Below, in pieces: positions 32,438 through 52,421 of a stretch of 64,000 bases of DNA. Source of the DNA: Octopus vulgaris (lineage: Eukaryota); assembly GCA_951406725.2 (NCBI GenBank), contig OX597822.1:47120001-47184000 (forward strand), given 5' to 3'. The notes below the pieces were generated by a model, which was not told the origin of the DNA, searched no databases, and worked only from the letters and a program-made list of their open reading frames with translations. Position 1 is the first letter of the stretch. Each line of letters begins with the position of its first letter. Made by a program: the position numbers and the translations under genes.

Positions 32438-33186
32438 TATGCTTCAACACACGAACTCATATAAAGAATCTTGCAAACCAAATACAAAAACGAAATATAT
32501 ATATATATATATATAATACAAACTGGGACAAGAACGCATAACATTTAGAAGACGATACAAAAAACACGGACGGGACATTCGAAGCCTTCAATCTTCAGTC
32601 AAGAACCGGATCATCCTCGCAATTTCGGCTGATTAATCTTGAGATTGCTCCAATCTGGCCAGCCCCAAGGAAAAACTAAGGTAAGCGCATTAGATTCCTT
32701 GGAAAAAAGCTTCGAATGCATACGAAACAAGGACGGAAAACGGACGATGTTACACGAATATGAATACAAAAATAAGGACGGAAAACGGACATATATAAAA
32801 TACACTTTAATTGAAATAAAGATTCCCCAAAATTAAACATATCTAATATAATGTAAATGTCAGTGAGTCATATTTTTTCAACTTTAATAAATCCTTTCTT
32901 CTGGAAGCACAAGGCCTCAAATTTTGGGGGTAGAGATCAAGTCGATTACATCAACCCTAGCACGTAACTGATACTAATTTTATCAACACCAAGTGGCTTA
33001 GTGCATAAAAACCTGGATTACGATAAATTTTATACATAAATATAAGAGAGTAACCACCATGTGGTCTACTCTAGCACTAAAAATAGATCCGCTAGGTTTC
33101 AGCCACAAAAAATTGTTTCCGATGAAAGTTAGCACGACTACTAGCGCAAACGAACAGGGCAAATAAACATAACAAAAATGCAGATT

Positions 33187-33265
33187 AGTTCAGGACAATT
33201 GTTTCGCTATTAATAAATTATGTAATTTTACTCACATAACATATCTGTAGCTCTTCAGCCGAACC
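33187..33265 (-). ncRNA. Type I hammerhead ribozyme (mirror copy of 33564-33642)
   Basis: Exact reverse complement of the plus-strand copy. Confidence 0.85.
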
Positions 33266-33563
33266 CGTCCAGAATACAATTTACCCGACCGCACGCTAGA
33301 TTTCACCATAATGATAAACACACGTGCGGCCCAGTCGATTGCATTCGCTGTTATAATTTCAAGTGCCCCTGCCATAGCCCGCCAAAATTCACAGAAACAG
33401 ATACTACATCCAAAATTAAATGTAGTATCTGTTTCTGTGAATTTTGGCGGGCTATGGCAGGGGCACTTGAAATTATAACAGCGAATGCAATCGACTGGGC
33501 CGCACGTGTGTTTATCATTATGGTGAAATCTAGCGTGCGGTCGGGTAAATTGTATTCTGGACG

Positions 33564-33642
33564 GGTTCGGCTGAAGAGCTACAGATATGTTATGTGAGTA
33601 AAATTACATAATTTATTAATAGCGAAACAATTGTCCTGAACT
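33564..33642 (+). ncRNA. Type I hammerhead ribozyme, canonical core
   Basis: Stem I GGTTCGG/CTGAACT, CTGAAGA(33571), stem II GCTA...TAGC with inner TTATGTGA/TTACATAA, GAAA(33624), palindromic stem III ACAATTGT, GUC site (after 33635). Confidence 0.85.
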
Positions 33643-33893
33643 AATCTGCATTTTTGTTATGTTTATTTGCCCTGTTCGTTTGCGCTAGTAGTCGTGCTAA
33701 CTTTCATCGGAAACAATTTTTTGTGGCTGAAACCTAGCGGATCTATTTTTAGTGCTAGAGTAGACCACATGGTGGTTACTCTCTTATATTTATGAATAAA
33801 ATTTATCGTAATCCAGGTTTTTATGCACTAAGCCACTTTGTGTTAAATGGATGTACTATTAAATTAGTATCCAATTTTCTCACCCTTATTAGT

Positions 33894-33960
<67 letters not shown>

Positions 33961-35988
33961 CTGCTTGCTTAGCCAGCGGGGTGGCGTCATTTGAAGGCTA
34001 AATCAATGCGAAGCGCATTGTGACCAGCGATGTGTAGCAACATCTGATAGCCTGGTCTGTCACGTGATCACGTGATATATATATATATATATATATATTC
34101 ATATATACGACGGGCTCCTTTCAGTTGCCGTCTACCAAATCCACTCACAAGGCTTTGGTCAGCCCGAGGCTATAGTAGAAGACACTTGCCCAAGGTGCCA
34201 AGCAGTGGGACTGAACCCGGAACCATGTAGCTCGTAAGCAAGCTACTTACCACACAGCCACAATATCAATAGGCATTTAAGGTTTCTACCATACACACCA
34301 CAATAACTTTCTACCAGTTGTATTAGATGAAAAATTTTCCCTTTGTTTCTCTCTTCTGTCACGAATGCTTTAATTCCTCGACGAGCTCACATTGTTTTGC
34401 ATTCCTCTTGCTTCTCTATCTGCGTCACCTAATTCTTTTTTACCCGTTCCTTACCATACTATAGATATTCCAGTCTCTCCGGACTTTGTGCCAGTTGTCT
34501 AACTTCTCCAAACCTTTTATTCATGGTGTACTGCGTGGTTTTCCAACTTTTTTTTTACAGAATTGGCTTCGTTTTTCTTTTCCTTTTTTTTTACTTCATA
34601 TATCAGTGTTGATTTCTAATTAGATTTTCTCCAATTTTTCTATTATTTTTCTGTTATTCCTCTTCTCTCCCTGAACTGGCATCCTTTCTCTCCTTTTTGC
34701 TTCGCTTGTTCATTTTTTTGTGTTTTCTTTTTCTTCCCTCGGTTTATGCGCTTTACATTCCGACACGTGTACATATCACTATTGCATCCATCTCTCCCCT
34801 CTGCGTACTTCACTAATTTTCTTCCTTCACATGTTTGTACTAGTGTTGAATTGTAATTATTCTTTCTCCAATTTTCTCTTCTTCTTTCACTTCTTTTCTC
34901 ACCCTCAACTCCTTCCTTTCTCCTTTCACTTCGCTTTTCCATTCCTTCCTTCCATGTACTTGCATCTCATACCCATACCCTTGCGCACACTTCCATCACA
35001 CATTCTACGATTCTCTTGCTTTCCCTTTTACCTCATACTCGTTCCCGCTCCTGTTTCTTCACTCTCACGTTTTCCTCACACACAATATGATTACTAGAGT
35101 TATGACTCTTACACAACCTAATAATCCTATACTTTAATTCCACGAATAATTTTATAAAAATCAGGAAACTAACATTTATTTTGCTTTATTTGAACAAAAC
35201 GTCACCCCCAACTTAAGAAATTGATCACCAATTTTGACCCAAAACGTGCAAAATTCTAGCGGTGTTGGGGTTCACAACGCCTGCTCAAGTTTTCACCAAA
35301 CGTGATGTGCTGACTCAATGCAATACAGAAACAGTACATCTGAAATTTCAGCTTTCTAGTTGAAGTAGTTTCAGAGTTAGAGGCTTTTGAAACTATAATC
35401 ACTAGATGGCACTAGATCCACACTTCAGTATTTCTGCTGCCTAAATCCTTGTAAACGCAAGAGAGATGCATAATAAAAGTGTACTTATACATTTTTAAGA
35501 TTACTGAATTGAAATTGCCGTATGCAAAGGTTCAAAACTAGGTTATTTTAAGACAGAGGCTACTACAAGCATTCGATAATATAGAAAATTTAAAGCAATA
35601 CATATTTTCAACTTTATAGGTCTAATTCCAATTTTAAATAACTGTACAAGAAAAAGGTTGCTGAATGTTAGCAAATTTTTAAACATAACAAAGAGTTAAT
35701 GCTTTGTCAGATAAAATAAATCGAAGCTGAAGTTTCTCCTTCTTTTTACAAACATCATAAAGATCTTGAAGGCACTTGACTTCCCGTTCTGCACTCTGAT
35801 TTGAGCTGAGAATTTCCAGTTTTAATGATTCTCAACACCAAAAGTTTTTTTTTACAGAGTTCAATGCTGTTTTATGAACTTGCAGGCTACCACATAACTT
35901 CTGATAATCATGTGCATTGAACATTTGCTCAGTAAACCAAAAATCTGTTCAGCTATAAGAAATGAATCGACAAATATTGAAAAGCAAA

Positions 35989-36293
35989 ACTCTTGAACTC
36001 TCTCTCCAAAGTTCTTTTCAACTTTCCCTCGCGATACTTGTCGGCTATCGGACTCGTCCCCGTATTTAGCCTTGGATGGAGCTTACCACCCGCTTTGGGC
36101 TGCGTTCCCAAGCAACCCGACTCTCGGGCCGATGAACACCGCCGATCGCCGCCGGCTCCGAATGGGCCTGGCACCCGCTCTGGGCAGCCCCGATCGAGGG
36201 GACTCGAACCTAGCCGGGCGAAACGATCGACCGTGTACGACCCTTGCGCCACAGCTCTCGACGACCGGCGCGGCCGACGAGATTCGGCGTTGT
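35989..36293 (-). pseudogene. 28S rRNA fragment (D1 region), dispersed copy
   Basis: GC-rich island; minus strand reads CCCAAAGCGGGTGGTAAGCTCCATCCAAGGCTAAATAC...GAGGGAAAGTTGAAAAGAACTTTGGAGAGAGAGTTCAAGAGT, the conserved LSU segment. Confidence 0.93.
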
Positions 36294-36864
36294 ACTCATC
36301 TAAAATAACTGTTATTTCTTTCACAACAGTATTGGCTTTTTCCGTTTGGTAATTGGAGTGCTTCTAACTTAACTTCTCATTGTTCATTCTTTAAAACTAG
36401 CACTTGGTATTCTTGGTCATCAATACATTTACCATCAAAATGCAATTATCAGTTTTCTAAATGTAATGTTTACTTCATTTTTTAAAAAAATGTTAGCAGC
36501 TTCTTTGATAGTCAACCTGTAAATACCAGTTTCGGAAGGAGTCTTGACATTGATTCCATCTTGAGATAATTGTCGACAAACTGTTGCTGCTTTTGGGGTT
36601 GGTAACTTGGAAGATATTTCTAACTCGGTTGCAGTTAGTAATATGAAATTGTTCATTGACTTTTTGATACAGGAAATTGTTTAATTCCCAAAAAATCAAA
36701 AAGTCATAACTCATTACACATAGATACACATATACGCACACACAATACTTCATACCCTCACAACCCTACGATATAGAGAAAGGCAAGTCAGTTCAGGGTC
36801 ATCGCCTTTCGGACCAATTACTCCACGAGACTCAATGGAACTACTCAAAGCCGATTTCTATGAA

Positions 36865-51426: not shown

Positions 51427-52210
51427 CCCCCTCCCCCGTTTGTTTATCCAATTTTAAACCCTGCACGACTTCTATATACTTTGTCTTTCCTACCCGCCAT
51501 TGCTTCTTTACCAAACTATTTTGGCGCCCTCCGATTCTTCCCCCTCTTCCTCCCATCCTCCTCAATCCCTTCTTTCTCCTTTTCTCTTGGTCACTGATTC
51601 TGTCCCCTGCCTTCCACCCTCTTTGATTCCCTCTCTCTCTGTCTCTCTTTCTCTCTCTCTCCTGCAACCTGCTGCTTCTTAACCATTCTGTTGGCGATCG
51701 TATCTCGACCAACATGTGTCCCCTCTACCGAAAAGGTAATTATTTCTACGCCAGCTGCTATGTTGTTGTTGTTTTTGTCTCATTTGGTCTAAAGTCGTAA
51801 GACAACCACCGTTATATTTTGTTTATCCATTACTGTTTTCAATTTCGTTTTCGTCTCTTGTATTTACATCCGTCTCTTGCGTTTACATTCTTGTCTTCTA
51901 CCAAGAAATCTAATGCTTACAGCTTAGTTTTTGGGGGGGCTGGCCGAGTTGGAGCAAATATCAGAATTGAACAGCCGAAATTTGCTATGATGATTCGGTG
52001 TCTGACTGAAGATTGAAGGCTTCGAATGATTTGTCTGTGTTCCGTGTTCGTCCCTTCCTGTTTCTCACGTTCTTTATATATAAAAACATTTATTCTTATA
52101 TATATATATACTTGAGTAGTTGAATGAATTATCTTATTAAAGATAATTCGAAAGATAACCGATACCTGGGTAGCAAATTCATATCAGACATTTTTGATGT
52201 CGACGTAAGT

Positions 52211-52307
52211 TCCTTGATTTTCCTGAAGAGAAATCTGCATAATGTACTCCTTATTCCTTCGGAATTAGGAATATGCAGCCTTCGAAACATATGTCGAGAA
52301 TAAAGGA
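52211..52307 (+). ncRNA. Type I hammerhead ribozyme, canonical core, in a ~240-bp element (52111-52350) inside (TA)n
   Basis: Stem I TCCTTGATTTTC/GAGAATAAAGGA (11 of 12 pairs), CTGAAGA(52223), stem II GAA..CTGCATA/TATGCAG..TTC, GAAA(52284), palindromic stem III ACATATGT, GUC site (after 52295). Confidence 0.88.
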
Positions 52308-52347
52308 TATTTGTTAACTAGTCGTTCAACTCCATACTTTCATATAC

Positions 52348-52421
<74 letters not shown>

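What the first reader, a model, noticed from the sequence alone, without database searches (positions are those of the whole stretch)
52111..52350. Compact ~240-bp element in (TA)n with a textbook hammerhead and self-complementary ends
Seen: canonical core, 11/12-bp stem I, long stem II, ACATATGT stem III and a GUC site. The element's ends can pair (AGTTGAATGA / TCGTTCAACT), and it has internal hairpins (GAATTATCTT/AAGATAATTC, GACAT/ATGTC). It is the best candidate here for a currently active ribozyme and a highly structured retrozyme-like monomer.
Basis: partly seen in the sequence, partly recalled or inferred. Interest (0 to 1): 0.7.

Follow-up and report, generated by a model that had tools for sequence, protein, structure and literature searches.

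The report
Penelope retrotransposon stub with hammerhead ribozyme
The self-cutting RNA motif is real, but it is the end piece of a shortened, mirror-image copy of a known kind of jumping gene (Hydra-type Penelope element), not a small circular RNA element; the family's copies hint that the ribozyme likely does cut the RNA that gets copied into the genome.

Summary
The hammerhead and hairpins are there as described, and the fold covaries across 14 related copies. The retrozyme-monomer reading fails. The 244 bp are two pieces of one Penelope-like retrotransposon joined head to head in (TA)n: 52192-52354 is the ribozyme-bearing 3' end (98% to copy L046), 52109-52188 is the inverted end of the 158-nt tail (96%). 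The self-pairing ends are one motif that precedes both end sites, seen once inverted. The family (at least 434 matches of one 29-mer) encodes a ~900-aa telomerase-like reverse transcriptase with a GIY-YIG-like C-terminus and Hydra-clade motifs. Beyond the literature read: two-armed insertions nearly always pair a short end with a tailed end (52 of 53, 10 of 10, 29 of 29); junctions pile up modestly at the ribozyme cut, with both arms stopping there in 3-4 insertions; and the family targets (TA)n without the linker cysteines tied to that targeting (0 of 29 versus 20 of 21). This copy alone is predicted to cleave weakly and cannot release a unit-length circle.

The parts
52097..52110 (.). left (TA)n target tract
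   Evidence: sequence
52109..52188 (-). inverted arm: last 80 nt of the element's 158-nt tail, ending at the long end site (B); in full copies this runs on into the ORF, ATG about 48 nt later
   Evidence: 77 of 80 identical to natural copy L046; continuation into ORF in L070, L061, L065
52126..52149 (-). hairpin just before end site B, kept in the family (GAATTATC stem)
   Evidence: sequence; fold of the natural copy; seen by eye in sister subfamilies
52188..52192 (.). head-to-head junction of the two arms, unique to this copy, no clear microhomology
   Evidence: (row L001)
52192..52354 (+). sense arm: 3' end of the pseudo-LTR, ending at the short end site (A)
   Evidence: 160 of 163 identical to L046
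52211..52307 (+). type I hammerhead ribozyme, long helix II, 2-bp helix III with palindromic loop; predicted cut after C52295
52322..52331 (+). TCRTTCAACT motif before site A; the same motif precedes site B (52118-52127 on the minus strand), which makes the apparent end pairing
   Evidence: site contexts printed
52349..52418 (.). right (TA)n target tract

Best explanation
This is a non-coding, 5'-truncated, two-armed insertion of a Hydra-clade Penelope-like retrotransposon, likely made when the element's protein cut a TA repeat and copied its RNA into both sides of the break from two fixed start sites. Shown: the two arms, their match to full elements, the two end sites, the short/long pairing, the (TA)n flanks and the RT plus C-terminal nuclease ORF of the family. 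Inferred: the GIY-YIG domain opens (TA)n on both strands; each 3' end primes reverse transcription, one about 57-80 nt after the ribozyme cut (site A), the other about 215 nt after it (site B); both cDNAs stopped early (163 and 80 nt) and were joined at their 5'-truncated ends. The hammerhead belongs to the parent element's life cycle; in this stub it is a passenger that would cleave weakly, better as a dimer through ACAUAUGU, and only if host transcription reads it.
For: Copies: 63 matches among 40 scored of 2120 candidates; 434 exact matches of the 29-mer after the cut. Longer copies run ORF end, 3' UTR, hammerhead, tail, ORF start. Open 904- and 907-aa frames in sister copies L099, L100; model matches telomerase RT best (E 2e-9); the C-terminal domain's top five rows are GIY-YIG nucleases, weakly (E 0.09-0.23). 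Of 153 ends at A or B, 147 abut TA-type repeats. Two-armed insertions: 52 A+B, 1 A+A, 0 B+B of 53 (36 of 36 where the query did not hold both ends); 10 of 10 second ends resolved among 20 extended loci; 29 of 29 resolved among 60 new regions. The two arms share 34 of 196 variant sites against 0.9% for shuffled pairs (some duplicated loci are in the set). PMC11167929 (parts 1-2 of 4 read) shows a Penelope protein cutting and extending both strands at AT-rich DNA and starting at two internal RNA sites that bound the tail; PMC8557442 section 11 describes Hydra elements with hammerheads in (TA)n.
Against: No priming or cleavage was measured. 31 of 60 regions and 10 of 20 had one arm or no resolved second end, so many insertions do not show two arms. 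Pfam finds nothing in these ORFs and the nuclease fold match is below significance. The CxCX5C linker of the Hydra clade is missing. No fully open ORF of the window's own subfamily was seen among the long copies fetched. Junction palindromes fit the self-priming rival as well.
Confidence: 0.88

Rival explanations
1. Same element, different route to the inversion: one cDNA folds back and primes on itself (or an antisense template is used), and later deletion around the centre of the palindrome leaves unequal arms.
For: Proposed for head-to-head Penelope repeats in PMC3846280 (passages read). 58 of 93 junctions show overlap, several at palindromes. Shared variants between arms fit this too.
Against: Here the arms share no sequence (natural-copy positions 937-1016 and 698-860), and both outer ends sit at exact 3' end sites joined to (TA)n, which fold-back alone does not predict.
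Confidence: 0.08
2. A non-autonomous retrozyme monomer that is expressed, self-cleaves, circularises and spreads as a 240-nt unit.
For: True type I hammerhead; size in the retrozyme range (PMC7229834, passages read); ten other loci of similar size and layout; one locus of a sister subfamily has three tandem ribozyme units (L271).
Against: The ten look-alikes have ten different junctions. No same-strand neighbour within 1 kb among the first 100 of 434 listed places. One cut site cannot release a monomer. Circular folding is less stable than linear (-49.3 against -55.3 kcal/mol).
Confidence: 0.03
3. A MITE-like DNA element whose paired ends are terminal inverted repeats, carrying a hammerhead by capture.
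For: 10-nt inverted match near the ends; TA target.
Against: The match is not terminal, and both halves map to a reverse-transcriptase element.
Confidence: 0.01

Closest known systems
Hydra clade of C-terminal EN+ Penelope-like elements (PMC8557442, section 11 and supplement file 1 parts read)
   Same: Single ORF with RT then nuclease; RW and DKT motifs; CxxC and CxH around the conserved E and N; hammerhead in the pseudo-LTR; (TA)n insertion; inverted truncated arm; tail at one end.
   Different: Longer (about 3.6 kb unit, ~900 aa with Asn-rich linkers; published families mostly under 3 kb); no CxCX5C linker; tail 158 nt rather than 30-40; hammerhead and protein differ by eye from Hydra-1_Obim, so a separate family.
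Poseidon element PAc of the green anole (PMC11167929, parts 1-2 of 4 read)
   Same: Two internal start sites bounding a tail; AT-rich target cut on both strands.
   Different: Other clade; ribozyme and both end sites lie before the ATG here; both end sites carry UAUA-like bases that match the target; PAc showed no RNA ends at the ribozyme cut, whereas junctions here gather at it.
Non-LTR retrozymes (PMC7229834 passages; bioRxiv 10.64898/2026.07.22.740005 parts 1-3 of 5)
   Same: Type I hammerhead, small palindromic helix III, similar size, AT-rich.
   Different: Not a tandem repeat unit, one ribozyme, composite of two inverted pieces of an autonomous element.
PLE hammerheads (PMC4209133, parts 1-2 of 4 read)
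   Same: Long helix II, weak palindromic helix III, G10.1-C11.1 pair, opposite-strand pairs a few hundred bp apart.
   Different: Stem I is longer (11 of 12 pairs) than the minimal motifs described.

Membership tests
Type I hammerhead ribozyme | CUGANGA and GAAA core with NUH cut site, three helices | tested here: met
   CUGA(A/U)GA and GAAA invariant in 14 aligned copies
Type I hammerhead ribozyme | Helices supported by compensatory changes | tested here: met
   11 of 35 pairs, 0 of 500 shuffles; related sequences can inflate this
Type I hammerhead ribozyme | Match to a curated Rfam hammerhead model | tested here: not met
Type I hammerhead ribozyme | Self-cleavage | not testable with these tools
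   only folding and indirect junction counts
EN+ Penelope-like element | Telomerase-related reverse transcriptase | tested here: met
   best fold matches are TERT; in family copies, not in the window stub
EN+ Penelope-like element | C-terminal GIY-YIG nuclease | tested here: inconclusive
   Y..YIG, R, E, N conserved; top five fold rows GIY-YIG but E 0.09-0.23
EN+ Penelope-like element | Pseudo-LTR, partial tandems, inverted truncated arm, optional tail | tested here: met
Hydra clade | RWK-like and DKT motifs; CxxC and CxH around E and N; no CCHH | tested here: met
   RIRW, SDKT, CxxC..E..N..CxHW read; compared by eye with the published alignment
Hydra clade | CxCX5C linker before the nuclease | tested here: not met
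   0 of 29 distinct family linkers; 20 of 21 scored homologs have it, 6 of 27 not scored
Hydra clade | Insertion in (TA)n and canonical hammerhead | tested here: met
   147 of 153 ends
Hydra clade | Placement in the clade by a tree with reference PLEs | not tested
Non-LTR retrozyme | Tandem units, each with a hammerhead | tested here: not met
   single ribozyme at the locus; none in tandem among 100 of 434 places; one triple in a sister subfamily
Non-LTR retrozyme | Fixed monomer shared by many loci | tested here: not met
   junction differs in each of 10 look-alikes
Non-LTR retrozyme | Circular RNA in vivo | not testable with these tools
   only contigs of runs not on record as RNA

The most novel reading that the evidence does not exclude
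The family's insertions are a fossil record of Penelope integration: one protein dimer primes both ends of a broken TA repeat at two different sites of the same RNA (strict short-end/long-end pairing), a few percent of templates were RNAs already cut by the hammerhead (both arms run off at the cut and gain 1-2 extra bases), which would be genomic evidence that a Penelope ribozyme cleaves in vivo, and TA targeting needs no cysteine linker.
Probability: 0.45. Interest if true: 0.6.

Novelty: new member of a known kind. Interest (0 to 1): 0.33.

Why it matters
The locus itself is ordinary repeat debris. The family is useful because two questions are called open in the papers read: what the hammerhead does in Penelope elements, and how their inverted insertions form (PMC8557442; PMC11167929 found no RNA ends at the cut). 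Here the pairing of ends and the junctions at the cut give exact, testable predictions, and open reading frames of sister copies (L099, L100) are available for an in vitro assay. Loss of the cysteine linker with TA targeting intact tests the idea that this linker directs targeting.

Tried and rejected
Rfam: no hammerhead match. Pfam: nothing above cut-off for the ORFs or the 20 aligned members. PDB by sequence: one unrelated row at E 0.27. Sequencing runs: no RNA holder listed on record; four runs of contigs laid on the stub cover both arms but none spans the whole stretch, which proves nothing. Earlier findings by place and by sequence: none. A second cluster of arm ends about 150 nt upstream of the cut (9 of 80 arms within 15 nt), near an initiator-like motif, may be a transcription start but overlaps a palindrome: not claimed. 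Terminal-inverted-repeat and circular-monomer readings were rejected. Literature: five answered searches showed no paper on a strict end-pairing count or on junctions at a PLE ribozyme cut; subscription papers and Repbase are not covered, and bioRxiv supplements were not seen, so the family may be catalogued.

Full report
Observation. The hammerhead has an 11-of-12 stem I, core CTGAAGA at 52223, a long helix II, a 2-bp helix III with the palindrome ACATATGT and a GUC site at C52295. Rfam does not score it, but in 14 divergent copies the CUGA(A/U)GA and GAAA core is invariant and 11 of 35 pairs change on both sides, with 0 of 500 shuffles as high and 2-4 in slid controls. The 240-mer folds well (z -2.92), yet its best fold blocks the cut site; helix III has pair probability 0.03 in the whole element and 0.14-0.16 in the bare ribozyme, while two palindromes pair at -8.4 kcal/mol. 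That predicts weak monomer cleavage and better dimer cleavage, as reported for PLE hammerheads (PMC4209133, parts 1-2 read).

What it is. A search of the 2.8-Gb own genome returned 63 matches among 40 scored of 2120 candidates. The right part (52192-52354) and the left part (52109-52188) match separately. In longer copies the left part lies 76 nt and more downstream of the ribozyme end on the same strand; in the window it is inverted. The ten closest look-alikes have ten different junctions, so this is a recurring outcome, not a fixed unit. Walking upstream gave a 3' UTR and an ORF; walking downstream, the tail runs into the ORF start about 48 nt later. Sister copies hold open 904- and 907-aa frames. 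The model of one matches telomerase RT best (E 2e-9) and its last domain ranks GIY-YIG nucleases first, though weakly. RW, DKT and CxxC..E..N..CxH motifs, the hammerhead and the (TA)n target fit the Hydra clade (PMC8557442, section 11); by eye it is not Hydra-1_Obim. The host is probably an octopus-like cephalopod (inference from genome size, repeats and named homologs). No coding piece of the family lies in the window.

The paired ends. In the element's sense strand a TCRTTCAACT motif precedes both end sites. With one arm inverted the two copies look like complementary termini. The GACAT hairpin spans the junction and is particular to this copy; the GAATTATC hairpin is a family feature just before the long end.

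How it likely formed. Copy ends fall in two zones: A, 57-80 nt after the cut, and B, about 215 nt after it; 147 of 153 such ends abut TA-type repeats, 27 further rows run on into the ORF and 14 end elsewhere. Two-armed insertions pair one A with one B: 52 of 53 (one A+A), 36 of 36 where the query did not hold both ends; 10 of 10 resolved among 20 loci extended as a prospective test; 29 of 29 resolved among 60 fresh regions, 31 single or unresolved. Arms of one insertion share 34 of 196 variant sites against 0.9% in shuffled pairs (a few duplicated loci remain in that set, and gene conversion could add to it). This fits PMC11167929, where a Penelope protein, predicted dimeric, cut and extended both strands and started at two internal sites bounding the tail. 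A tail at one end only is already noted (PMC8557442, PMC3846280); the near-strict count and the 158-nt length were not found in five searches. Earlier AI notes of this scan report the same rule; I had counted it before looking, and they are not independent support.

Does the ribozyme act? 434 places match the 29 bases after the cut. Of 7 preceded by A or G, 6 are arm junctions exactly at the cut. Of 15 preceded by T, 9 are point changes and 6 are junction rows from 3 loci. In three insertions both arms stop on that base with 1-2 extra bases between; a fourth is blunt but sits on a TCGA palindrome and is ambiguous. A sister subfamily gave 8 clear and 1 doubtful junction among 29 rows, without a control. 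Against this: like-for-like controls gave 2 independent junctions at +3, 2-3 at -2 and 3 at -7, so the single-arm excess is only about threefold, and none of 80 unselected arms ended there. An enzyme stall at the helix junction is an alternative. I put in vivo cleavage of some family templates at about 0.6. The window copy itself keeps the whole ribozyme, so its template was uncut.

Linker. None of 29 distinct family linkers has the CxC motif, in frame or in the other frames of L099, whereas 20 of 21 scored homologs do (the miss was a false anchor; 6 of 27 were not scored). PMC8557442 associates this linker with (TA)n targeting, yet this family is TA-specific.

Verdict. Real ribozyme, wrong frame: a retrotransposon stub, a new family of a known clade. 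Interest 0.33, carried by the family-level patterns rather than by this locus.

Noticed in passing
window 32984-33843: 860-bp near-perfect inverted repeat (98.8%) with a type I hammerhead in each arm (33258 minus, 33571 plus) and a TA tract beyond the right arm; an unrelated Penelope-like family by layout.
   Followed up: no
window 35732-36376, minus strand: Fragment of large-subunit rRNA embedded in unrelated sequence.
   Followed up: no
L271 1150-1950 (G000:C6:11312800-11313600): Sister-subfamily insertion whose ribozyme-bearing part is repeated three times head to tail (period about 253 bp, TA tracts between): a local retrozyme-like array born from a PLE fragment.
   Followed up: partly
L103-L105 (G000:C20:23328000-23357999): Cluster of at least seven older family copies about 3-3.7 kb apart, some inverted.
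   Followed up: no
L046 about 2090-2140: CRE-like TGACGT, TATAAA and initiator-like TCATT motifs (labels recalled) about 150-185 nt before the cut, where several arms end; possible promoter in the pseudo-LTR.
   Followed up: partly
L070/L089, tail and ORF start: GGTATCGGTTA in the tail is complementary to TAACCGATACC just before the ATG, which would enclose end site B in a loop (seen by eye).
   Followed up: no
window 52200-52207 and L046 homolog: A segment upstream of stem I is predicted to pair with the cut site and compete with the hammerhead fold, more strongly in the common family variant.
   Followed up: partly
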